This document shows, one piece after another, positions 3,886 through 31,104 of a stretch of DNA of 64,000 nt. The stretch spans positions 2,355-66,354 of the forward strand of contig JBBABN010000001.1 in assembly GCA_041657665.1 (NCBI GenBank). Direction: 5' to 3'. Position 1 is the first letter of the stretch; each line of letters starts with the position of its first letter. The translations under genes and the position numbers were made by a program. Under the pieces are notes generated by a model. That model searched no databases, was not told where the DNA came from, and saw nothing but the letters and a program-made list of their open reading frames with translations. This DNA comes from Minisyncoccota bacterium. GTDB lineage: Bacteria; Patescibacteriota; Minisyncoccia; Phycocordibacterales; Phycocordibacteraceae.

Positions 3886-4590
3886 ATGCTACCTTCACCT
3901 GTTTTAGTGTTAATCGCCACACTCAGTATTGTTACTGTCCTGCTTCTCATGAGGCCGCGACGATTCTATATCGTCCGTCACGGCGAAACACTTTCGAATA
4001 AACAACACATTCGCCAAGGTATAGAAGGTGCTCTTTCAGAGAAGGGCCGGCATCAAGCAGATCAAACAGGCCGAGCGCTCGAACACCTTTCTATTTCAAG
4101 CATTATTTCAAGCACATATCCGCGAGCAAAAGAGACAGCTGTAATTATAAATACTCACCTTAAGGTTCCTGTACGGTATTCCCCTCTTCTTGGCGAGAGA
4201 CGTAATCCTTCTGAAATTATCGGGAAGAATAGAGACGAGCCCGAGGTTTCTCACATCATCGATCAGATGGATCTCTCGTATCACGGCGATAATTATCGCT
4301 TCTCTGACGAAGAAAACTTTGCTGACCTGAAGAAGCGAGCACGGAAATGTCTCGCACTTCTCTCGCGTCAAGGAACGCGAAATACTTGTGTCGTAACACA
4401 TCACGTATTCCTTAAAATGTTACTCGCCTATATGCTTCATCGCGAACGATTACACGCCGCTGACTTTGCGAAGCTCTCGTTTTTTAATATCTCTGATAAC
4501 GCAGGTATCTCTATTTGTGAATTCCATCCGTGGAAGATGTTCTCGCCCACCCGCGGCTGGAAGGTCGTGAGTTTCAACGAAACACCCTAA
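3886..4590 (+). CDS. Histidine phosphatase family protein (phosphoglycerate mutase-like)
   Basis: Contains the RHGET catalytic motif (IVRHGETLSN) followed by GxxxxQG, typical of histidine phosphatase superfamily branch 1. Confidence 0.7.
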   Translation: MLPSPVLVLIATLSIVTVLLLMRPRRFYIVRHGETLSNKQHIRQGIEGALSEKGRHQADQTGRALEHLSISSIISSTYPRAKETAVIINTHLKVPVRYSPLLGERRNPSEIIGKNRDEPEVSHIIDQMDLSYHGDNYRFSDEENFADLKKRARKCLALLSRQGTRNTCVVTHHVFLKMLLAYMLHRERLHAADFAKLSFFNISDNAGISICEFHPWKMFSPTRGWKVVSFNETP

Positions 4591-19466: not shown

Positions 19467-19540
19467 GCCCCGATGGTGAAATGGATATCACGGCTGACTT
19501 CGGATCAGCTATTCCGGGTTCGAATCCTGGTCAGGGCACC
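19467..19540 (+). tRNA. tRNA-Arg (anticodon TCG)
   Basis: Manual cloverleaf: acceptor GCCCCGA/TCAGGGC (one mismatch), D stem GTGA/TCAC, anticodon stem GCTGA/TCAGC with loop CTTCGGA (TCG), T arm CCGGG-TTCGAAT-CCTGG. Confidence 0.8.
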
Positions 19541-19599
19541 GCTAAGAAAAGTTGGTCACACTAGAAATGAATATGCACGGCATGCTACTATGCCGAGAG

Positions 19600-19670
19600 G
19601 CGGGCATGGTTTAGTGGTAGAACACGTCCTTGCCAAGGACGAGACGGGAGTCCGATTCTCCCTGCCCGCA
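19600..19670 (+). tRNA. tRNA-Gly (anticodon GCC)
   Basis: Acceptor GCGGGCA/TGCCCGC, anticodon stem CGTCC/GGACG with loop TTGCCAA (GCC), T arm GGGAG-TCCGATT-CTCCC. Confidence 0.85.
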
Positions 19671-19855
19671 CTACTTCGCTCTGTTCAGAAACAGAGCTTC
19701 GCAGTGCACAGCACTATAGGAATGTGACTAAAAAGACGACTTTTACTCCTGTGGATAAGTAGGTGCATACTGGGGATAAAGGACAGTTGTCTATAATGGA
19801 TAAACTAGTGCGGTCTTAGAGTATACTGAGGAAATAAGCCATATTTATAAAAGCC

Positions 19856-20272
19856 GTGGACATTTCATCTAAGACCACTAAAGAGATAGGAAATCTGGGG
19901 GAAAGCGTCGCCTGCGAGTATCTCCGGCGACACGGATTCTCTATTCGCGATCGCAATATTGCACGAAAGACAGGAGAACTCGATGTTATCGCAGAGAAGG
20001 AAGATACCCTGCATTTTGTTGAAGTTAAGACTGTGCTGGCTGACGAATTTCCCCACTCCGCTGAAGCTACTCGGGGCAAGCCAGGTGATTATGATGAATA
20101 CGATCCTTCCCTCAACTTACACGAAGCGAAGGTGCGGAAAGTCGCACGGACCGGCGAATGGTATGTCCTAGAGAAAGGATGGGAAGGGGACTGGCAAGTA
20201 GACGGGTGTCTCGTCTGGCTCCGCCGTCGAGACGGTATGGCACGAGTGAGCTACCTGCCACAAATTGTATAA
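19856..20272 (+). CDS. yraN: YraN/UPF0102 family predicted endonuclease
   Basis: GNLGESVACEYLRRHGFSIRDRN...GELDVIA...LHFVEVKT matches the YraN restriction-endonuclease-like core. Confidence 0.7.
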   Translation: MDISSKTTKEIGNLGESVACEYLRRHGFSIRDRNIARKTGELDVIAEKEDTLHFVEVKTVLADEFPHSAEATRGKPGDYDEYDPSLNLHEAKVRKVARTGEWYVLEKGWEGDWQVDGCLVWLRRRDGMARVSYLPQIV

Positions 20273-20292
20273 ATCTGCTAGGATGCGAGAAA

Positions 20293-20363
20293 CGGGCCGG
20301 AGTATGCCGGTAGTACACCTGCTTTGGGAGCAGGCAGACCGAGTTCAATTCTCGGCGGCCCGA
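20293..20363 (+). tRNA. tRNA-Pro (anticodon TGG)
   Basis: Acceptor CGGGCCG/CGGCCCG, anticodon stem CCTGC/GCAGG with loop TTTGGGA (TGG), T arm CCGAG-TTCAATT-CTCGG. Confidence 0.8.
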
Positions 20364-20366
20364 TGA

Positions 20367-21440
20367 TTACGGTAATTGAGTAGTTATAATCGACTCTAGA
20401 GCAGTCATTTTGGGTGCAAAACTAGCGATAGAAGAAATAGGCGATTGAACAAGAAGAATATCCAAAGGTTCTTTTGTTTCACTTGCATATTCAGAACGCA
20501 CGTAGGAGGCCGTTATGGCGCTCAAGGAGCGTGTATTAATCGCACCAGAGATTGTGCTCGTCGTAATAGTGCCGACGAGTTTTCCTTCTGCGTCTACAAT
20601 GCCTCCGCCAGAAGAACCCTCTTGTGCGATAGCCGAACCGCCAAAAGAGAGTACGTCGATCGTATTCTCTGCAAAAGTAAAAACATCTTTCACTGAGCCG
20701 AATACCATAGAAGGGAAGAGTGAGGACACTATCTGGCTTGGATCAAGAAACTGTGCCCCATACGAGGCAATAGCTACTGGCGTATCAGGAAGCGGCGGCT
20801 GTGTAGCGAGTGGGATATAAGGGAAAGAGAGGGGGAGAGGACTTGTCGTCGCGCTCGAAGAGACCGCGAGGAGCGCAAAATCGTATTCACCAGTTCCGTT
20901 TGGCGATGTCTCACTGAGGACTTTTGGATTCGCCTGAAGCCATTTCTCTGAGATATATATGAGTTTTGCGTTATAGCGGTCTGTTGCCGGAACTCCAGAG
21001 CGAATAGTGCAGGAGATACCCTTATCAGCGAGAAGAAAATATTGCCCGACATGCGCATTGGTGAGGATAATGCCTTTCGCATCGATAAGAACACCTGTTG
21101 CCGAGATTGAATGGAGAGGACTTCCTTGTGGGGCGTAACAAATAATATTTACCAGAGCATCGACAAGCGTCGAAGCTGCGACACGGAGCGCTGTATTTTT
21201 TTCAACTGAAGAGGGTGATAGTGCAGGATTACTAGCTGATGTTGGAATAGCAGAAGAAACAACTTTTGGAGCAGCGCTTTCATCAGAAGGAATTGCTGAT
21301 ACTGGTTTTGTAGAAAAATCGGCAGGAATGGTAGCAGTTATAGGAGAATTAACCGTAGGAGTACGCCCAAGAAAAGAAGCAATAAAAACTCCACACACAA
21401 ACCCAAGAGAGATGCCAATAAATGAAACGAATCGTCGCAT
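20367..21440 (-). CDS. Secreted trypsin-like serine protease (S1 family, HtrA-like without an obvious PDZ)
   Basis: Signal/TM at the N-terminus. Catalytic-triad context ILTNAHV (His) and ...GSSGGGIVDAEGKLVGTIT (the Ser motif, cf. GDSGGP). Confidence 0.7.
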   Translation of the reverse strand: MRRFVSFIGISLGFVCGVFIASFLGRTPTVNSPITATIPADFSTKPVSAIPSDESAAPKVVSSAIPTSASNPALSPSSVEKNTALRVAASTLVDALVNIICYAPQGSPLHSISATGVLIDAKGIILTNAHVGQYFLLADKGISCTIRSGVPATDRYNAKLIYISEKWLQANPKVLSETSPNGTGEYDFALLAVSSSATTSPLPLSFPYIPLATQPPLPDTPVAIASYGAQFLDPSQIVSSLFPSMVFGSVKDVFTFAENTIDVLSFGGSAIAQEGSSGGGIVDAEGKLVGTITTSTISGAINTRSLSAITASYVRSEYASETKEPLDILLVQSPISSIASFAPKMTALESIITTQLP

Positions 21441-21482
21441 GTTTATACGCTAGCGCAAAAATGGTATTCTCACCACAGGAAC

Positions 21483-21553
21483 GCGGGATTAGTTTAATGG
21501 TAGAACTACAGATTTCCAATCTGTTAGTGGGAGTTCGATTCTCCCATCCCGCA
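21483..21553 (+). tRNA. tRNA-Gly (anticodon TCC)
   Basis: Acceptor GCGGGAT/ATCCCGC, anticodon stem ACAGA/TCTGT with loop TTTCCAA (TCC), T arm GGGAG-TTCGATT-CTCCC. Confidence 0.85.
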
Positions 21554-22046: not shown

Positions 22047-23258
22047 ATGGAGCCGCTCGCTGCACAAATACGACCGAAGACGCTTCAAGAAGTTGTCGGA
22101 CAAGAACATTTGGTAGGCGAAGGGAAGCCCTTGCGCGTCGCAGTAGAAAAGAAACATAAGTTCTCTTTTGTTCTCTGGGGGCCGCCCGGGACAGGGAAGA
22201 CGACTATTGCGCGCATTTATGCGCGCGCGCTTGATGCAGAACTATTTGAACTCTCGGCGGTATCGGCAGGGAAGGACGATATTAGAAAGTTGTTAGGCGC
22301 AAGGGATAAGGTGCAAGGAAATTCGCTTAAACCTTACACCTTGAACCTTAAACCTAAAGTATTGTTTCTCGACGAGATTCATCGTTTTAATAAAAGCCAG
22401 CAGGATTTTCTCTTGCCCTATGTCGAGAGCGGAGAATTAACCCTCATCGGCGCAACGACGGAGAATCCTTCATTTGAAATTATCGCGCCCCTTCTCTCGC
22501 GCTGTCGCGTATTCGTCTTAGAGCCTCTTTCTGAAGAAGCCCTCCGCGCGATTGTTAAAAGAACAAAACTGAAAGTGAAGAAAGACGCTTTTGAATGGCT
22601 TTTGGGTTATGCGGGCGGGGACGCACGCAGGGCACTTGGGATGATGGAAGGTGCACAAAGTTTATATGGGGAGGTTACTATCGAATCCCTTACTAAAGCG
22701 CTCGAATCGCCCCATCTGCACTACGACAAGAAAGGCGAAGAACACTACGACACTATCAGTGCGTTTATTAAAAGCATGCGCGCTTCGCAGGCAGATGCGG
22801 CGATTTATTATTTGGCGCGAATGGTCGAAGCGGGAGAAGATCCGCTCTTTATCGCACGACGAATGGTTATCTTCGCCTCAGAAGATGTGGGACTCGCCCA
22901 GCCGACAGCGCTCGTAGTCGCGAATGCCGTCTTTCGTGCCTGCGAGACCATCGGCTATCCTGAATGTGCGATTAATCTCGCACACGGAGTCGCGTATCTC
23001 GCACAAGCGAAGAAAGATCGTTCTACTTATGATGCGCTTCGTGGCGCACAAGCTGACGTGCATGCCTACGGCAACTTGCCGGTACCGAAGAAAATACGAA
23101 ATGCTGTCACAAAACTTATGAAAGACCTCGACTATGGAAAGGGGTACGAGAAATACCCCTCGACTCCCTTCGACGATGCTCAAGGTAAACCGCTCGGGGC
23201 AAGTGAACCAGAATCATACTTGCCGGACAAATTGAAGAAAAAGAAGTACTTAAAATAA
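22047..23258 (+). CDS. rarA: Replication-associated recombination protein A (AAA+ ATPase RarA/MgsA)
   Basis: Walker [10 protein letters not shown], Walker B LFLDEIHRFNKSQQD, sensor and C-terminal MgsA helical domain (AIYYLARMVEAGEDPLFIARRM). Confidence 0.9.
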   Translation: MEPLAAQIRPKTLQEVVGQEHLVGEGKPLRVAVEKKHKFSFVLWGPPGTGKTTIARIYARALDAELFELSAVSAGKDDIRKLLGARDKVQGNSLKPYTLNLKPKVLFLDEIHRFNKSQQDFLLPYVESGELTLIGATTENPSFEIIAPLLSRCRVFVLEPLSEEALRAIVKRTKLKVKKDAFEWLLGYAGGDARRALGMMEGAQSLYGEVTIESLTKALESPHLHYDKKGEEHYDTISAFIKSMRASQADAAIYYLARMVEAGEDPLFIARRMVIFASEDVGLAQPTALVVANAVFRACETIGYPECAINLAHGVAYLAQAKKDRSTYDALRGAQADVHAYGNLPVPKKIRNAVTKLMKDLDYGKGYEKYPSTPFDDAQGKPLGASEPESYLPDKLKKKKYLK

Positions 23259-26763: not shown

Positions 26764-28152
26764 TTATTCGTCTTTCGCTGTATCGCGGTCTTCTTCTGCA
26801 TCAGCGACCGTCTCGTCGCTTGCCGGCAGTTCTGTCGATTCTTCTTCGGCAGGAAGTTCGGTAAGCTCTACCACTTCTTCAGTAATGATTTCATCACTTT
26901 CAGTCGGCATAACACCCGCCAATTCAGCAGGATCGGTTTCATCCTCTTTTCTAGTAGGATCCTCATCAACAACCGCGACTGATTCGCCATCAGATCCAGC
27001 GACTTCAGTGCCGCCAGTAGAAATAATATCAATATTCCATCCGGTAAGCTTCGCAGCGAGACGCACATTCTGACCACCGCGACCAATCGCGAGTGATTGT
27101 TCATCTTCAGATACTGTAACAGTCGCGCGATGACCTTCTTCATCAAGCACTACTTCAACCGGTGTCGCAGGGGAGAGCGCCTCTCTCACAAATTCTTTTG
27201 CATCATCATTCCATTCGATAATATCAATACGTTCTCCTCCAAGCTCACTCATCACAGTAGAAACGCGCACACCACGCTGACCGACGAGAGAACCGACCGG
27301 GTCGACATGTGACTCTTTCGAAGCAAGCGCTATCTTAGTACGACTGCCTGGCTCGCGCGCCAGCGCCTTCACCTCTATCGCACCACTCGCAAGCTCGGGT
27401 GCCTCAAGCTCGAAAAGCTTCACGACAAACTTCGGATGCGCACGGGAAAGTCGCAGATATACACCGCGGAATCCCTCGTCTACCGCGTAGAGATACGCGC
27501 GAATACGCTCACCCATACGATACCGCTCTCCTGGAATCTGCTCTTCATAAGGGATAATGCCGGTCGTACGCCCAAGATCGACGAAAATCGCTCCGCGTTC
27601 CATCCGCTGGACGATACCCGACACAATCTGACCTTTTCGCTCACCGAATTCCTCCATCATCGAGGTTTTTTCTGCTTCGCGCACCTTCTGAATAACTACC
27701 TGCTTGGCGGTTTGTGCTGCTATACGACCAAAATCGTCTTGCGGTTCGAGAGGGAAGACGATCTGTTCGCCCACAACAGCGTCACGCTTCATAAGCTTCG
27801 CATTAGCGATAAGGATATGCTTTTCAGAGTCGAAACGTGGCAATTCACCCTCAGCAAGCTGTTCTTCCTCATTATGAAATGAGTGCATGTGGTGACTATG
27901 CTCTTCAGGAATTTCTTCTCCAGGAGCAGGAAAACGAACGGTTGTGTCGTCCACAATCGTTTTAATCTGTTCGAAGGAGATAGTACCAGTATTAAGGTCG
28001 AGTTTGGCGTGTACCACTTGCCCGCGCTTACCGTATTCGCGCTTATATGCGGTCGCCATCGCACTCTCGATAGCCTCAATCATCGTTTCGCGATTAATGC
28101 CCCTGTCTTCGAACTCTCCGAGCACTGCATTGATGGTTTTTAAGTCAATCAT
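26764..28152 (-). CDS. nusA: Transcription termination/antitermination factor NusA
   Basis: N-terminal NusA domain (MIDLKTINAVLGEFEDRGINRETMIEAIE), S1 domain, two KH domains, and an acidic C-terminal tail. Confidence 0.9.
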   Translation of the reverse strand: MIDLKTINAVLGEFEDRGINRETMIEAIESAMATAYKREYGKRGQVVHAKLDLNTGTISFEQIKTIVDDTTVRFPAPGEEIPEEHSHHMHSFHNEEEQLAEGELPRFDSEKHILIANAKLMKRDAVVGEQIVFPLEPQDDFGRIAAQTAKQVVIQKVREAEKTSMMEEFGERKGQIVSGIVQRMERGAIFVDLGRTTGIIPYEEQIPGERYRMGERIRAYLYAVDEGFRGVYLRLSRAHPKFVVKLFELEAPELASGAIEVKALAREPGSRTKIALASKESHVDPVGSLVGQRGVRVSTVMSELGGERIDIIEWNDDAKEFVREALSPATPVEVVLDEEGHRATVTVSEDEQSLAIGRGGQNVRLAAKLTGWNIDIISTGGTEVAGSDGESVAVVDEDPTRKEDETDPAELAGVMPTESDEIITEEVVELTELPAEEESTELPASDETVADAEEDRDTAKDE

Positions 28153-28322
28153 ATGGAATATGTATGTCGCACGTTTTTAATATGTCTAACACCTATTCTA
28201 ACATTTCTAATAAAAATGCCCGCATCGCGGACATTTCAGATGATGTAAAGATACCAGATTCTTTTTTATGCGTCAACACAAAAAGAAAAGAGCCACCTAA
28301 TTGGTGACTCTATGCCCTTACG

Positions 28323-28382
28323 GTCTCGCCTCGACTTATTTTATTCGTCCGAGATCCCCGCTTACGCCTTGGGTTAGGCGGC
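28323..28382 (-). repeat. R element copy 1 (partial, ~60 nt) at the 3' end of small ORF 28395..28673
   Basis: GTCTCGCCTCGACTTATTTTATTCGTCCGAGATCCCCGCTTACGCCTTGGGTTAGGCGG is near-identical to the 5' two-thirds of copy 2 (28730..28815). Confidence 0.8.
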
Positions 28383-28394
28383 TGTGTGAAGATG

Positions 28395-28673
28395 TTAATT
28401 GCTCTTCTTCCTTGAGAGAAAGAGAAAGACAATTAAACCAACCAAGAAGTATACCGCCATGGACAAGTGGAGCGAAAGAGCCTCCGACCATGGCCATACC
28501 ATCCCAAACATCAGGACGGTGCAGTTTGTTCCTTGAATGTGCACCTTCATGTACAACGCCCCCACGAGAAAAATGCAGAAAGAGTAGAGAGCTACGAAAA
28601 TACTGGAGACCAGCACTTTCACGAAGATCTCTAATCCTTTGACAAACTTCTCGGCAGCTTTTTCAGATGTCAT
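28395..28673 (-). CDS. Small hydrophobic membrane protein (92 aa), unknown function. First downstream member of the small-ORF array.
   Basis: ORF with an AAGGAG RBS ~8 nt before its ATG (reverse complement of 28674-28690). Two predicted TM helices. Confidence 0.45.
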   Translation of the reverse strand: MTSEKAAEKFVKGLEIFVKVLVSSIFVALYSFCIFLVGALYMKVHIQGTNCTVLMFGMVWPWSEALSLHLSMAVYFLVGLIVFLFLSRKKSN

Positions 28674-28729
28674 TTCACTTCTCCTTTTTTATTGTGAGAG
28701 AACATTTTTTCTGTTTTCATTTCCCTGAG

Positions 28730-28815
28730 GTCTCGCCTCGGCTTATTTTATTCGTCCGAGATCCCCGCTCACGCCTTGGGTTAGGCGGGTTTCGCTACCC
28801 CGGCTCGAGCGAGAC
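28730..28815 (-). repeat. R element copy 2 (86 nt), a structured repeat overlapping the stop of ORF 28795..29097
   Basis: Terminal 7-bp pairing GTCTCGC/GCGAGAC encloses two hairpins (CTCGG..CCGAG and CCCGC..GCGGG). The ORF C-terminus LEPG* is encoded by the conserved GGCTCGAGC segment. Confidence 0.8.
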
Positions 28816-29097
28816 GACCTTTGATCTGGAAATCAAAAGCCGATCGGCCCCACAGCCTATGCGGCGGCCGTCGATCCACTCCGAGTGAGAGTGCATCACC
28901 CAGAGCACATTTCCATGGCTCTGAATCTCTACCACTCTTGGATCATTTGGATCGAGCTGGAGGGTCTTCACCTCGTCCTCATAGACATCAATGTCCCCTC
29001 TCCAGTACTTCCAAGTGCTCGGCCAGCGAGTCCAATTAATCTTTCTTTCTGTCCCATCCGTAAAACGGATGAACATTGGTCTTCCTGGACAATCCAT
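28795..29097 (-). CDS. Hypothetical 100-aa protein, middle ORF of the array
   Basis: Perfect SD AAGGAG 8 nt upstream of the ATG at 29097. The C-terminus is encoded inside R copy 2. No recognisable domain. Confidence 0.55.
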   Translation of the reverse strand: MDCPGRPMFIRFTDGTERKINWTRWPSTWKYWRGDIDVYEDEVKTLQLDPNDPRVVEIQSHGNVLWVMHSHSEWIDGRRIGCGADRLLISRSKVVSLEPG

Positions 29098-29123
29098 TTT
29101 ATTACTCCTTCAAAAAAGAACAT

Positions 29124-29212
29124 TCTGTTTCGTCCTGTGCGATTTGGCATTTCCAAACTGCCGGACTTGGACTTTTCAGTCCTCATCAGTCCCGACCCAA
29201 TCGGGAGACAGA
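29124..29212 (-). ncRNA. Hammerhead-ribozyme-like element A (type III topology, atypical expanded stem II)
   Basis: Minus-strand sense: CUCUGUC^UCCCGA-UUGGG-UCGGGA CUGAUGA GGACUG...[~45-nt insert]...CACAGGAC GAAAC AGA. Present are the GUC cleavage triplet, a 6-bp stem I hairpin, the CUGAUGA and GAAA core, and a 5-bp stem III (UCUGU/ACAGA). Stem II would need tandem G-A pairs plus a large insertion. Confidence 0.55.
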
Positions 29213-29333
29213 GAGAGGTTTTGTCCGGACCTCTCAAACCGAGCGTGTTCCTTCAAAGAAGGATGTCCCAATCACCTCAGATTGCCTGGGTTATGACGAA
29301 CCCGACAAACCTATGATTGCGTGATTTTCAATA

Positions 29334-29474
29334 TCAAGTCGTCATCTTGATATTCCGGATTATCCCCACGATCGAGGGGACGCCTAAGGGTGTGCGCTTA
29401 CCCAACGGAACAGGCTTATCTATTTCCATCTCTCGAGAGATAGGAACACATAACCCTGTTCCGTTTTTGTCCAT
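29334..29474 (-). CDS. Possible 46-aa ORF (MDKNGTGLCVPISREMEIDKPVPLGKRTPLGVPSIVGIIRNIKMTT) downstream of hammerhead B
   Basis: Internal ATG of track ORF 29334..29519. The upstream 45 nt of that track ORF are the hammerhead core and so unlikely to be coding. Weak RBS. Confidence 0.3.
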   Translation of the reverse strand: MDKNGTGLCVPISREMEIDKPVPLGKRTPLGVPSIVGIIRNIKMTT

Positions 29475-29494
29475 ATTTAAAAGAACAATTCTTT

Positions 29495-29546
29495 GCTGTT
29501 TCGTCCTTTTTGGACTCATCAGGGGAGAGAAATATCTCCCGACAGC
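29495..29546 (-). ncRNA. Type III hammerhead ribozyme (minimal, all core positions canonical)
   Basis: Minus-strand sense: GCUGUC^GGGAGA-UAUUUC-UCUCCC CUGAUGA GUCC-AAAAA-GGAC GAAAC AGC. Stem III GCUGU/ACAGC with A15.1-U16.1 and C17 (GUC, cleavage between + coordinates 29541/29540). Stem I 6 bp, stem II 4 bp (G10.1-C11.1). Invariant C3 U4 G5 A6 U7 G8 A9 and G12 A13 A14 are all present. Confidence 0.85.
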
Positions 29547-29696
29547 AATCCGTATCGTGGATTAGTCGAATCCCGTATTCGTTGGATTAATCGGATGGTA
29601 GTCATTATCGGCGTTGACCTTACCGTGCCAATCATTACTGACTGGCAGGTTTGCAGTTATTTCCATCACCTTACCTGCAAACCGTTTTACCCTGCG

Positions 29697-29780
29697 GTCT
29701 CGCTCCAACTTATGGATTCATTGAAGTCCCCGCTTACGCATGGGTTGAAGGCGGCTTCCGCTAAGCCATGGGCTCGAGCT
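29697..29780 (-). repeat. R element copy 3 (diverged, ~70% identity) overlapping the stop of ORF 29761..30171
   Basis: GGTCTCGCTCC...CCCCGCTTACGCATGGGTT..GGCGG...GGGCTCGAGC aligns with copies 1/2. The ORF C-terminus LEPMA* is encoded in the conserved GGCTCGAGC block. The hairpin-1 stem has a different sequence but preserves pairing (ACTT/AAGT versus CTCGG/CCGAG). Confidence 0.7.
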
Positions 29781-30171
29781 TCTTCGTCTTGAAGACGATC
29801 TTCTCGAGCACCTCGTAGTGGGAGAATTTAAGCAGGTCGCGCCCGCTCTCATCCTTCCCGACCACAATGGCCCGACCGGACTCATCACGCTCAAATTCCG
29901 CGCGAATGAGAACGGCCCCGAGGTTGCACTGCCGGTCCACCAACCTTATTAAGGTCGGGAACGGCGCCTGCGCCTCGACAGCGACGACTTTGCCATCGGT
30001 CTCGGACTCAACCTTCTGGATGAGTTCCTTGACCGAAGTGACAGCGTCGTCGCCGTAGCGGATGTCATCGGTTACGACCTTAAGGTCGCTTCCGAAGACG
30101 CCCTTCAGGAACGCCTCACGGGCGGCGTCGAGCGGATGGCGGGTGATTCTGACAAGGACTTTCATTTGCAC
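29761..30171 (-). CDS. Hypothetical 136-aa protein, first ORF of the array
   Basis: ORF starting ~120 nt downstream of the divergent promoter region 30172..30330. No recognisable motif. The C-terminus lies inside R copy 3. Confidence 0.5.
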   Translation of the reverse strand: MQMKVLVRITRHPLDAAREAFLKGVFGSDLKVVTDDIRYGDDAVTSVKELIQKVESETDGKVVAVEAQAPFPTLIRLVDRQCNLGAVLIRAEFERDESGRAIVVGKDESGRDLLKFSHYEVLEKIVFKTKKLEPMA

Positions 30172-30262
30172 TCCTTCTGCGGCCTTTGTCGCGAATAAAA
30201 GAACATTGATAACTTTTTATCAGTAGTGCTATGATAGCGCATTGGTATCGTTTGTCAAGTTT

Positions 30263-30317
30263 TTTATCATACCTTTTTATGATAAAAGCTTGACAGAAAT
30301 ATCACATAGAATATACT
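30263..30317 (+). promoter_or_regulatory. Sigma70-like promoter (TTGACA 30290-30295, 16-nt spacer, TATACT 30312-30317) preceded by the palindrome TTTTATCATA-N6-TATGATAAAA (30263..30288)
   Basis: Consensus -35/-10 hexamers 13 nt upstream of the ATG at 30331. A perfect 10-bp inverted repeat overlaps the -35 region, a likely operator (possibly for the TrmB-like product itself). Confidence 0.55.
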
Positions 30318-30330
30318 CCTTTTATCACAT

Positions 30331-31104
30331 ATGAAACAAAATCATGATAAAAAGGGGAGTGAGCGACTTCTTAAAAATCTAGAGAAGATCGGTTTAACCG
30401 AGAAAGAAGCCAGAATATATGTCTATTTGGTGGGGAGAACCATAGAAGTTGGGAGCTCCAAGATTGTTGCTGCTACTGGTTTACACGGCCAGTATGTCTA
30501 TACCGCTCTTGGGTCCCTTGAAGGTAAGGGGTTGGTAAAGCATGTCATTAAAAATAACCGTAAAAAGTGGAGTGCTAACCCTCCTGCGCGCATAGAATCG
30601 CTTATTGACGAAAAAAGAATCGTGGCAAATGAAGCACGAGACATGCTTGAAAAGATGTTCAGCCACCAGTATGAGCAAGAGTTCGAAGTGTACCAAGGCG
30701 AAGACCAATTTGCCGCGAATGAACTTCAAATAATTGAAGAGGCGGGAAAAGATAGCTTCATAGATATAATTGGGGGCGGCGGAGACAAATTTAAAGAAAC
30801 TCTTGGGGAAAGTCATGAATTTTACGATAAAAAGAGTATCGAAAAAAATATTGCGGTCAGATATATAGGAACGGGCGAGCAGCAAGATTATTTTGAAAGA
30901 GTGAAAAAGTCACGCGTGAATTTCGATTTCAGAATTATGCCGGAGTTTAACAATAGTAGTGTAAACACACTAATTTATCCTGATCAGATACAGTTTCAAA
31001 TATATGGTGATCCTGTTTTGGTATTTAAAATAAGAAATGAACAGATTGCGCGCGATTATAGAACATTTTTTGATTCCCTTTGGAATCTTTGTGGAGAACA
31101 GTAA
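30331..31104 (+). CDS. TrmB-family HTH transcriptional regulator
   Basis: N-terminus LEKIGLTEKEARIYVYLVGRT...SKIVAATGLHGQYVYTALGSLEGKGLV matches the TrmB winged-helix. It sits immediately upstream of the type IV pilus operon. Confidence 0.65.
   Translation: MKQNHDKKGSERLLKNLEKIGLTEKEARIYVYLVGRTIEVGSSKIVAATGLHGQYVYTALGSLEGKGLVKHVIKNNRKKWSANPPARIESLIDEKRIVANEARDMLEKMFSHQYEQEFEVYQGEDQFAANELQIIEEAGKDSFIDIIGGGGDKFKETLGESHEFYDKKSIEKNIAVRYIGTGEQQDYFERVKKSRVNFDFRIMPEFNNSSVNTLIYPDQIQFQIYGDPVLVFKIRNEQIARDYRTFFDSLWNLCGEQ

What the first reader, a model, noticed from the sequence alone, without database searches (positions are those of the whole stretch)
29124..29212. Second hammerhead-like element with a conserved core but an expanded, atypical stem II
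On the minus strand: CUCUGUC|UCCCGA-UUGGG-UCGGGA-CUGAUGA-GGACUG...(~45-nt insert containing GGACU-GAAA-AGUCC and UUUGG-AAAUG-CCAAA hairpins)...CACAGGAC-GAAAC-AGA. It has the same architecture as the 29495..29546 element. The GUC cleavage site, a 6-bp stem I, the CUGAUGA/GAAA core and a 5-bp stem III (UCUGU/ACAGA) are all present. It sits ~25 nt upstream of the strong SD and ATG of ORF 28795..29097. Stem II would only close via G10.1-C11.1, tandem G-A/A-G, C-G, U-A and G-C pairs around a large insertion. This is therefore either an active variant with an extended stem II or a decaying copy. The two leaders share ...GGACGAAACAG(A/C)A..AUGUUCUUUU..AUG downstream of the core, so they arose by duplication of a [ribozyme-leader-ORF] module.
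Basis: partly seen in the sequence, partly recalled or inferred. Interest (0 to 1): 0.7.

Follow-up and report, generated by a model that had tools for sequence, protein, structure and literature searches.

The report
Hammerhead ribozyme variant with four helices
A real, conserved relative of the hammerhead self-cutting RNA sits here in a candidate-phyla-radiation bacterium, but an extra hairpin wedged into its catalytic core makes a four-helix junction never reported for this ribozyme, so it is either a new active architecture or a disabled copy kept as a structured leader.

Summary
Window 29212..29124 (minus strand) carries a GUC site, a 7-bp stem I, CUGAUGA, GAAA and a 5-bp stem III. A descriptor for these features finds only this element and its neighbour HH1 in the window, against 0.003 hits per shuffled window.

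It is 13.5 kcal/mol worse than the predicted fold and reuses GGACU, which forms its own GNRA hairpin (IIa). The predicted fold is a four-way junction: III, I, IIa (GGACU-GAAA-AGUCC), AA, IIb (GUCC...GGAC), then GAAA.

The host is a Paceibacterota/Kaiserbacteria bacterium, not a phage. The element lies in a strain-variable 2.9-kb island upstream of nusA. It belongs to a Patescibacteria lineage of type III hammerheads, each followed by a UGUUCUUUU leader.

Orthologous islands carry HH2 in three alleles. Core, IIa and the AA linker are invariant; the five substitutions all fall in helices, one compensated. The HH1-to-HH2 non-coding block is 96% identical where flanking genes are 80-90%.

Best reading (0.5): a hammerhead-derived processing site separating a 334-nt structured RNA from the downstream small-ORF mRNA. 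Self-cleavage is untested. It scores below Rfam's threshold (24.4 vs 48.5 bits).

The parts
29213..29235 (-). Hairpin GAGAGGU-CCGGACAAA-ACCUCUC, directly 5' of the hammerhead. It would be the 3'-terminal hairpin of the upstream cleavage product.
   Evidence: Sequence. Identical in the orthologue L010. It forms in the MFE fold of the inter-ribozyme RNA. Comparable hairpins abut other hammerheads of this lineage.
29208..29212 (-). Stem III 5' strand, UCUGU (16.5-16.1).
   Evidence: Pairs with ACAGA at 29128-29124.
29207..29207 (-). C17 of the GUC triplet. The predicted scissile bond lies between 29207 and 29206.
   Evidence: Rfam Hammerhead_3 alignment and sequence. Cleavage itself was not tested.
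29190..29206 (-). Stem I hairpin, UCCCGAU-UGG-GUCGGGA (7 bp).
   Evidence: In orthologues the third pair changes from C-G to U.G.
29183..29189 (-). Core strand CUGAUGA (C3-A9).
   Evidence: Invariant in all three alleles.
29169..29182 (-). Hairpin IIa, GGACU-GAAA-AGUCC (5 bp, GNRA loop). This is the extra helix. Depending on which hairpin acts as stem II, it sits between A9 and G10.1 or is itself stem II.
   Evidence: MFE and centroid. Closing-pair probability 0.99. Invariant in three alleles, so there is no covariation evidence for or against it.
29167..29168 (-). AA linker between IIa and IIb. A29167 followed by G29166 could re-create an A9-G10.1 step.
   Evidence: Sequence; invariant. The A9 mimicry is inference.
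29132..29166 (-). Hairpin IIb. The proximal helix GUCC/GGAC is identical to stem II of HH1 and of the lineage. Bulges follow, then a distal 9-bp hairpin (29161-29153 with 29147-29139) with loop AAAUG.
   Evidence: closing-pair probability 0.98. Four of the five substitutions among alleles lie in the distal helix, including C-G, then C x A, then U-A at one pair.
29124..29131 (-). G12 A13 A14, then the stem III 3' strand ACAGA (A15.1 = 29128).
   Evidence: invariant.
29114..29124 (-). Leader motif AAUGUUCUUUU, shared with HH1 (29489-29479), the ORF136 leader (30207-30197) and, in degenerate form, the ORF92 leader.
   Evidence: 10 matches against 2.7 expected. Lineage-wide association with hammerheads in Patescibacteria.
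29493..29548 (-). HH1, the canonical type III hammerhead partner. Its predicted cleavage lies between 29541 and 29540.
   Evidence: Rfam 52.3 bits against a gathering score of 48.5. A G-C to U-A compensatory change in stem III relative to L010.
29207..29540 (-). The 334-nt RNA that the two cleavages would release. It is highly structured and not coding.
   Evidence: MFE -124.5 kcal/mol, z = -6.2. 96% identical to L010. The 46-aa ORF is disrupted in L010.
28795..29097 (-). ORF100, the downstream ORF in this strain only. It is an orphan cassette, absent from orthologous islands.

Best explanation
HH2 is a descendant of a Patescibacteria-specific lineage of type III hammerhead ribozymes. In that lineage an upstream hairpin precedes the hammerhead, and a UGUUCUUUU leader follows it.

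In HH2 the stem II region has been remodelled. The transcript folds co-transcriptionally into a four-way junction. The order is stem III, stem I, CUGAUGA, a new GNRA hairpin IIa, an AA linker, hairpin IIb (which keeps the lineage's GUCC/GGAC stem II base and has an expanded tip), then GAAA.

I think it most likely still works as a cis-cleaving processing site inside one operon transcript. That transcript would run from the promoter near 30258 to the terminator at 28311-28289. Cleavage would fall after C29207.

- Together with HH1, this releases a conserved 334-nt structured RNA whose 3' end is capped by the hairpin at 29235-29213.
- The downstream small-ORF mRNA (ORF100 here, ORF92 in orthologues) is left with a 5'-OH and the folded ribozyme as its 5' end.
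- Catalysis would require one of the two hairpins to serve as stem II while the other projects out of the core. A29167-G29166 could stand in for A9-G10.1.

Shown: sequence features, homology, conservation, predicted fold, operon context.
Inferred: self-cleavage, which hairpin acts as stem II, and the fate of the products.
For: - Core, GUC, stem I and stem III are intact and non-random.
- The four-way junction is both the MFE and the centroid. Its z-score is -2.8, and both hairpin closing pairs have probability 0.98-0.99.
- Lineage membership by descent. A pattern containing only GGACGAAACAG..TGTTCTTTT recovered 8 complete type III hammerheads. Seven are in records named as Patescibacteria lineages, and one is in an unclassified 'bacterium' MAG.
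- Peripheral expansions occur elsewhere in this lineage, in L008 (stem I) and in L011 and L051 (stem II).
- Orthologous islands (L010/L028-L038) carry HH2 at the same place.
- Across three alleles, all 14 core positions, IIa, the AA linker and stem III are invariant.
- The five substitutions are all in helices. One is C-G to U.G in stem I. One pair goes C-G, then C x A, then U-A. One mismatch becomes G-C. One G.U becomes A-U.
- The HH1-to-HH2 non-coding block has 16 mismatches in 422 aligned nt. The flanking coding sequences have 98 in 690 (Fisher p = 5.6e-9).
- No terminator-like site on the minus strand lies between the 11/12 promoter match and the terminator at 28311-28289.
- Multiple hammerheads flanking single genes within transcripts is an established arrangement (PMC3088659).
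Against: [quoted passage not shown] A 16-nt insertion there, or 37 nt between C11.1 and G12, may abolish catalysis.
- The Rfam score is half the gathering score.
- With three alleles, covariation is not significant: 352 of 500 shuffles reach the observed value. IIa shows no variation at all.
- The whole block is about 96-97% conserved, so conservation of the core does not by itself show selection for catalysis.
- In allele L036 the substrate strand and GUC of HH2 are deleted, yet the rest of HH2 is retained. Cleavage at this site is therefore dispensable, at least in that strain.
- There are no transcript-end data.
Confidence: 0.5

Rival explanations
1. Disabled ribozyme. HH2 was a canonical lineage member that was inactivated when hairpin IIa was inserted next to A9. 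It persists as a stable structured 5' leader of the downstream mRNA and/or as the 3' domain of the conserved upstream RNA. HH1 alone does the processing.
For: - Insertions of this size next to CUGAnGA are unknown among active hammerheads.
- The Rfam score is 24.4 against 48.5.
- Allele L036 lacks HH2's cleavage site and stem III 5' strand. It nevertheless keeps the body, with two substitutions that tighten IIb. This fits a structural role rather than a catalytic one.
- The ORF92 leader carries what looks like a hammerhead 3' remnant, GAAAACAGAAAAAAUGUUCU, so decay does happen in this system.
Against: - All catalytic nucleotides, the GUC, A15.1-U16.1 and both flanking stems remain perfect in the two alleles that still have the site.
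- The lineage-specific upstream hairpin and downstream leader are retained.
- No substitution has hit any of the roughly 29 unpaired or core positions.
- These are weak arguments, given only about 3% divergence.
Confidence: 0.35
2. Conditional ribozyme. The two-hairpin state is an 'off' conformer. A factor such as a ligand, a protein, temperature or the ribosome shifts the pairing to a form with a contiguous stem II, either the reader's pairing or a single basal G29182-C29132 pair. Cleavage would then be regulated.
For: - The repeated GGAC/GUCC/GUCC/GGAC segments allow alternative registers.
- In HH1 the downstream leader UUGUUCUUUU is predicted to pair with AAAAGGACGA, which is loop II, the stem II 3' strand, G12 and A13. 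That gives an alternative, ribozyme-off helix. Alternative folding therefore seems to be built into this lineage.
Against: - The alternative conformers cost about 12-13.5 kcal/mol: -22.6 and -20.9 against -34.4.
- No known aptamer is detected in the insert.
- There is no covariation supporting any alternative helix.
Confidence: 0.1
3. Chance resemblance, or a DNA-level repeat with no RNA function.
For: The element scores below Rfam's gathering threshold.
Against: - The descriptor expects 0.003 hits per window.
- The element is 281 nt from a bona fide hammerhead on the same strand and shares flanks with it.
- It is orthologously conserved, more so than the neighbouring genes.
Confidence: 0.02

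Closest known systems
Type III hammerhead ribozyme (Rfam RF00008), in particular the Patescibacteria sub-lineage found here (HH1 of this window; L009, L013, L018, L019, L023)
   Same: - SCG/type III topology and a GUC site.
- CUGAUGA and GAAA cores.
- A 7-bp stem I and a UCUGU/ACAGA stem III.
- A GUCC/GGAC helix abutting GAAA.
- An upstream hairpin and a downstream UGUUCUUUU leader.
   Different: - A 14-nt GNRA hairpin plus AA lies between A9 and the GUCC strand, giving four helices at the junction instead of three.
- The tip of the GUCC/GGAC helix is expanded to 27 nt.
- It fails the Rfam gathering score.
CChMVd (+) hammerhead, with an extra nucleotide (A10) between A9 and G10.1 (De la Pena & Flores 2001, listed in PMC6155905; details from my own knowledge)
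   Same: A natural insertion at exactly the A9/G10.1 step of an active type III hammerhead.
   Different: One nucleotide there, against a 16-nt hairpin plus linker here.
   Same: The core is kept while a peripheral element is greatly expanded.
   Different: Those insertions sit at the distal end of a stem and leave the three-way junction untouched. Here the added helix enters the junction itself.
Multiple hammerheads flanking individual genes in prophage transcripts (Perreault et al. 2011, PMC3088659)
   Same: Several hammerheads on one strand cut a polycistronic RNA into single-gene or short pieces. The flanked genes are variable and often hypothetical.
   Different: - The host is a CPR bacterial chromosome island next to nusA, with no phage genes.
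- One flanked segment is a non-coding structured RNA.
Non-circular hammerhead permutations (types SGC and CSG; Eckert et al. 2023, PMC10085705)
   Same: They show that hammerhead connectivity is more plastic than the three classic types.
   Different: Those variants keep the three blocks (S, C, G) uninterrupted. HH2 keeps the classic block order but interrupts either block C or block G.

Membership tests
Hammerhead ribozyme, type III (RF00008) | Conserved core nucleotides C3 U4 G5 A6 N7 G8 A9 and G12 A13 A14. | tested here: met
   CUGAUGA at 29189-29183 and GAAA at 29131-29128. Invariant in three alleles.
Hammerhead ribozyme, type III (RF00008) | An NUH cleavage triplet, followed by stem I, with the A15.1-U16.1 pair closing stem III. 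| tested here: met
   GUC at 29209-29207. U29208 pairs with A29128.
Hammerhead ribozyme, type III (RF00008) | Stem I closed by a loop, with stem III open (type III topology). | tested here: met
   A 7-bp stem I hairpin and a 5-bp stem III formed by the 5' and 3' ends.
Hammerhead ribozyme, type III (RF00008) | A three-way junction, with stem II directly flanked by A9 on one strand and G12 on the other. Published alignments show no more than 1-2 nt inserted there. | tested here: not met
   The predicted ground state has two hairpins between A9 and G12. Contiguous stem II models are 12-13.5 kcal/mol worse. The criterion comes from PMC10085705.
Hammerhead ribozyme, type III (RF00008) | A score at or above the curated Rfam gathering threshold. 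| tested here: not met
   24.4 bits against 48.5.
Hammerhead ribozyme, type III (RF00008) | Covariation supporting the stems. | tested here: inconclusive
   Three alleles give one both-sided change (in IIb) and two one-sided changes. 352 of 500 shuffles reach the observed value.
Hammerhead ribozyme, type III (RF00008) | Site-specific self-cleavage yielding 2',3'-cyclic phosphate and 5'-OH ends. | not testable with these tools
   This needs an in vitro transcription and cleavage assay, or RNA-end mapping.
Patescibacteria hammerhead-plus-leader lineage (defined here) | A ..GGAC-GAAAC-AG.. 3' end, followed within 0-12 nt by UGUUCUUUU. A hairpin lies directly upstream of stem III. | tested here: met
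   This lineage is defined from my own search pattern, so conservation of the leader is partly by ascertainment.

The most novel reading that the evidence does not exclude
HH2 is an active natural hammerhead whose catalytic core tolerates a whole extra helix inserted at the G8/A9/G10.1 step, or equivalently at C11.1/G12. That would be the first four-way-junction hammerhead. Together with HH1 it would excise a conserved 334-nt structured RNA of unknown function from an operon transcript in a CPR bacterium.
Probability: 0.4. Interest if true: 0.7.

Novelty: new variant of a known kind. Interest (0 to 1): 0.5.

Why it matters
If HH2 cleaves, it breaks a rule. That rule is currently used both to define the hammerhead blocks and to build search descriptors: no insertion beyond 1-2 nt next to CUGAnGA or GAAA. 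Covariance-model surveys would then be systematically missing junction-expanded ribozymes.

It would also give a natural scaffold in which a helix enters the core, which is of interest for aptazyme design.

Independently of activity, the locus documents two things. One is a Patescibacteria hammerhead lineage with a fixed pyrimidine leader. The other is a pair of ribozymes bracketing a conserved non-coding RNA. Both bear on the long-open question of what bacterial hammerheads are for.

If HH2 is dead, it is an ordinary pseudo-ribozyme.

Tried and rejected
1. Phage origin. PHROG 'head maturation protease' hits turned out to be ClpP. The 462-aa neighbour is NusA of Paceibacterota/Kaiserbacteria. 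There is no DNA match in phage records.

2. Homologues of ORF100. Only the protein itself was found among 5.8 billion proteins, and none in viral contigs.

3. Viral-contig pattern scans. Searches for HH2, for the hammerhead-leader junction and for the 3' element returned nothing or only chance hits inside genes.

4. Both are 12-13.5 kcal/mol above the four-way junction.

5. Closer NusA relatives (L001, L002, L004, L055-L059) and more distant ORF136 loci (L039-L054, L060, L061). None carries HH2. Hammerheads in L049 and L051 lie upstream of the ORF136 homologue, not downstream.

6. Integron attC reading of the repeated 3' element. GCCTAAC fits R'' (RYYYAAC), but there is no complementary GTTRRRY and no integrase nearby. 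Rejected.

7. Twister or twister-sister identity for the 3' element. No Rfam hit even at E <= 10.

8. A known aptamer inside the stem II insert. Only a weak freshwater-2 hit (E = 1.3) that mostly matches the SD/AUG region.

9. A literature search for hammerheads in Patescibacteria or four-way-junction hammerheads found nothing relevant.

Full report
**What is in the sequence**

On the minus strand, 29212..29124 reads UCUGUC / UCCCGAU-UGG-GUCGGGA / CUGAUGA / GGACU-GAAA-AGUCC / AA / GUCCGGCAGUUUGGAAAUGCCAAAUCGCACAGGAC / GAAAC-AGA. These are the GUC site (C17 = 29207), stem I, both core strands and a 5-bp stem III. A GGAG follows at 29108-29105 and an ATG at 29097.

- Rfam's Hammerhead_3 model aligns the element end to end at 24.4 bits (E = 0.016 in a 1.1-kb search). 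It skips 49 nt inside stem II.
- The neighbouring HH1 (29548..29493) passes the gathering score at 52.3 bits against 48.5.
- A stricter descriptor of my own finds only these two elements in the 64-kb window. In 300 dinucleotide shuffles it averaged 0.0033 hits.

**How it folds**

ViennaRNA gives a four-way junction as both MFE and centroid at -34.4 kcal/mol. The z-score is -2.8, and 1 of 200 shuffles folds as well. The helices, in order, are:
- stem III;
- stem I;
- hairpin IIa (GGACU/AGUCC with a GNRA loop);
- hairpin IIb, after the AA linker. Its base, GUCC/GGAC, is exactly the stem II of HH1.

| Model | Energy (kcal/mol) |
|---|---|
| Four-way junction (MFE) | -34.4 |
| Single basal G-C pair plus three-way junction | -22.6 |

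The two hairpin closing pairs have probabilities 0.99 and 0.98.

Both hairpins are local and would form in order of synthesis. Relative to a canonical hammerhead, the element therefore has one of two insertions. One is a 16-nt insertion (IIa plus AA) between A9 and G10.1. The other is a 37-nt insertion (AA plus IIb) between C11.1 and G12. A29167-G29166 could re-create an A9-G10.1 step; that is inference.

**Where it is**

The window is not a phage. The 462-aa ORF at 26764..28152 is NusA of a Candidatus Paceibacterota/Kaiserbacteria bacterium. Pyrophosphatase, ClpP and a divergent type IV pilus operon lie nearby.

In the closest NusA relatives (88-96% identical), nusA and the pilus ATPase gene are about 150 bp apart. 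Here they are 2.9 kb apart. The extra DNA is a strain-variable island. On the minus strand it holds, in order:
- an 11/12 promoter match at 30258-30231;
- ORF136;
- a structured 3' element;
- HH1;
- 278 nt of non-coding sequence;
- HH2;
- ORF100;
- a second copy of the 3' element;
- ORF92, a small hydrophobic protein;
- a third copy of the 3' element;
- a terminator at 28311-28289.

There is no intervening terminator on that strand. A TrmB-like gene is transcribed divergently.

**Relatives**

ORF100 has no relative other than itself.

I scanned one genome per species with GGACGAAACAG-N(0-12)-TGTTCTTTT. This pattern contains no part of the 5' half of the ribozyme. It gave 21 stretches. Eight of them have a complete type III hammerhead upstream of the match. 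Seven of those eight are in records named as Zambryskiibacteriota, Saccharibacteria, Kaiserbacteria or 'Patescibacteria group'.

The hammerhead plus pyrimidine leader is thus a lineage trait in this phylum, not a local duplication. Peripheral expansions occur within the lineage: a branched stem I in L008, and longer stem II in L011 and L051. None of these has a helix inserted at the junction.

One hit, Kaiserbacteria RIFOXYD1_FULL_47_14 (L010), is an orthologous island with both HH1 and HH2. Ten more contigs of that type were fetched through the ORF136 homologue.

**Variation among alleles**

Three HH2 alleles exist: the window, the L010 type and L036.
- CUGAUGA, GAAA, the IIa hairpin and the AA linker are identical in all three. 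GUC and the stem III 5' strand are identical in the two alleles that retain them.
- All five substitutions fall in helices.
- In stem I, the third pair changes from C-G to U.G.
- In the distal IIb helix, one pair goes C-G (window), then C x A (L010), then U-A (L036).
- Also in IIb, one A x C mismatch becomes G-C, and one G.U becomes A-U.

With three sequences this is not statistically significant: 352 of 500 shuffles match it.

Between the window and L010, identity is 96.1% in HH1, 96.0% in the inter-ribozyme RNA and 96.8% in HH2. It is 89.8% in ORF136 and 79.9% in ORF92. That is 16 mismatches in 422 nt against 98 in 690 (Fisher p = 5.6e-9). The RNA block is therefore under stronger constraint than the genes around it.

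HH1 shows a G-C to U-A compensatory change in stem III.

**What lies between and after the ribozymes**

The '46-aa ORF' after HH1 is not conserved as coding. In L010 its ATG is ATA and an in-frame CGA is TGA. The 334 nt between the two predicted cleavage sites fold to -124.5 kcal/mol with z = -6.2.

In the L010-type islands HH2 sits directly before ORF92. ORF100 plus one copy of the 3' element is an insertion specific to this window. It is flanked by GAAACAGAAUGUUCU and GAAAACAGAAAAAAUGUUCU.

In L036 the segment from just after HH1's leader to HH2's scissile bond is missing. The junction is defined to within 1 nt. That HH2 body therefore has no GUC and no stem III 5' strand of its own.

**Most likely mechanism**

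The operon is transcribed as one RNA. HH1 and HH2 fold as they emerge. The upstream product of each cut would end in a hairpin (29235-29213 for HH2) with a 2',3'-cyclic phosphate. The downstream product would begin with a 5'-OH and the folded ribozyme, then the pyrimidine leader, the SD and the ORF.

That arrangement matches the known pattern of several hammerheads flanking single genes within phage-derived transcripts (PMC3088659).

Whether HH2 actually cleaves is the open step. [quoted passage not shown] A single extra nucleotide at A9/G10.1 is the known precedent (cited in PMC6155905).

My estimates are:
- about 0.9 that HH2 is a hammerhead by descent;
- about 0.75 that it folds as a four-way junction;
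- about 0.4-0.5 that it still self-cleaves.

**Rivals**

- A disabled copy kept as a structured leader (0.35). This is favoured by the unprecedented insertion, the sub-threshold score and the L036 allele. In L036 the cleavage site is gone, yet IIb carries two helix-tightening changes.
- A conditional ribozyme with an 'off' two-hairpin state (0.1). This is suggested by the repeated GGAC/GUCC segments, and by the predicted pairing of HH1's leader with its own stem II 3' strand, G12 and A13. It costs 12-13.5 kcal/mol and has no supporting covariation.
- Chance (0.02). This is excluded.

**Comparison and novelty**

HH2 works like, and descends from, a type III hammerhead. It fails two membership tests: the uninterrupted three-way junction and the Rfam gathering score. 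I therefore file it as a new variant of a known kind rather than as a plain member. If active, it would be the first hammerhead with a fourth helix entering the core. If inactive, it is an ordinary pseudo-ribozyme.

**Dead ends**

These include the phage hypothesis, ORF100 homology, viral-contig scans, an integron attC reading and a twister reading of the 3' element, and a search for aptamers in the insert. They are listed under Tried and rejected.

Noticed in passing
window minus strand 29758..29684, 28794..28718, 28385..28309; also L010 3515..3439 and L039 4034..4101: A repeated structured element of about 75 nt lies just 3' of ORF136, ORF100 and ORF92. It has a hairpin CGCCU/AGGCG with loop AACCCA, then a GCGG/CCGC helix enclosing a second hairpin. 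Among 5 sequences, 6 pairs show both-sided changes. The segments GGGA, GCGAGA and a 3' AGGG are conserved and unpaired, so a pseudoknot is possible. Copies B and C are 97% identical although the ORFs before them are unrelated. No Rfam family matches, even at E <= 10. It may be an undescribed RNA motif associated with ribozyme-rich cassettes.
   Followed up: partly
window 29207..29540 (minus strand): The 334-nt segment bracketed by the two hammerhead cleavage sites is highly structured (z = -6.2, with a 31-bp imperfect hairpin at 29404-29465). It is 96% conserved and not coding in orthologues. It is a candidate ribozyme-excised non-coding RNA. Circularisation was not tested.
   Followed up: partly
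window 29124..29114, 29489..29479, 30207..30197, about 28709..28699 (minus strand); L008-L023: The leader motif A(A/U)UGUUCUUUU follows hammerheads across Patescibacteria. It also precedes ORF136, which has no ribozyme. It is complementary to the purine-rich SD (GAAGGAG), and in HH1 to AAAAGGACGA (loop II, stem II 3' strand, G12 and A13). This suggests an anti-SD or ribozyme-off switch.
   Followed up: partly
window 28714..29113 compared with L010 and L029: ORF100 plus one copy of the 3' element is a strain-specific cassette. It is inserted between GAAACAGAAUGUUCU and a degenerate repeat, GAAAACAGAAAAAAUGUUCU. L029 carries the 'empty' site with both repeats 27 nt apart.
   Followed up: partly
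L036 3386..3400: One allele lacks the sequence from HH1's leader (..UGUUCUUUUAAA) up to HH2's scissile bond; the right-hand edge falls at GUC|U, give or take 1 nt. Outside this region L036 differs from L029 at only 3 of 1067 positions. Two of those three are helix-tightening changes in IIb.
   Followed up: partly
window 28153..31079: The whole region between nusA and the divergent type IV pilus operon is a 2.9-kb island. It holds a TrmB-like regulator, ORF136, the ribozymes and the small ORFs. It is absent from the closest NusA relatives (L001, L002, L055-L059) and replaced by Bro-N and GIY-YIG genes in L004.
   Followed up: yes
L023 3120..3190 (minus strand): A twister-P1-like match (54.1 bits, gathering score 67.2, E = 1e-11 locally) lies 470 nt downstream of a canonical hammerhead in another uncultured bacterium. 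A weak RAGATH-19 match sits beside it. Hammerhead and twister co-occur in these cassettes.
   Followed up: no
L039 2420..2465 and 4220..4265: In a more distant ORF136 locus a 45-nt leader repeat (UUCCCGAAGUUGGCGGAUUGACCAACUAUGUUCCCGAAAGGGCGGCC) precedes two successive genes in place of hammerheads. ORF136 there is followed by a Csx3-like gene, as it is in L054.
   Followed up: no
window 29631..29604 (minus strand): A promoter-like site (TTGGCA-16-GATAAT, 10 of 12) lies about 60 nt upstream of HH1, in the conserved spacer. HH1 and the structured RNA may have their own promoter.
   Followed up: no
window 22514..22587 (+) and L002 10906..10833: A loose hammerhead-like match (CUGAAGA..GAAA, A-A at 10.1/11.1, 3-4 bp stem I) lies inside ORF 22047..23258. 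It recurs at a similar sequence in a relative. I judge it a chance match.
   Followed up: partly
window 19467..21553: Four tRNA genes cluster within 2.1 kb.
   Followed up: no
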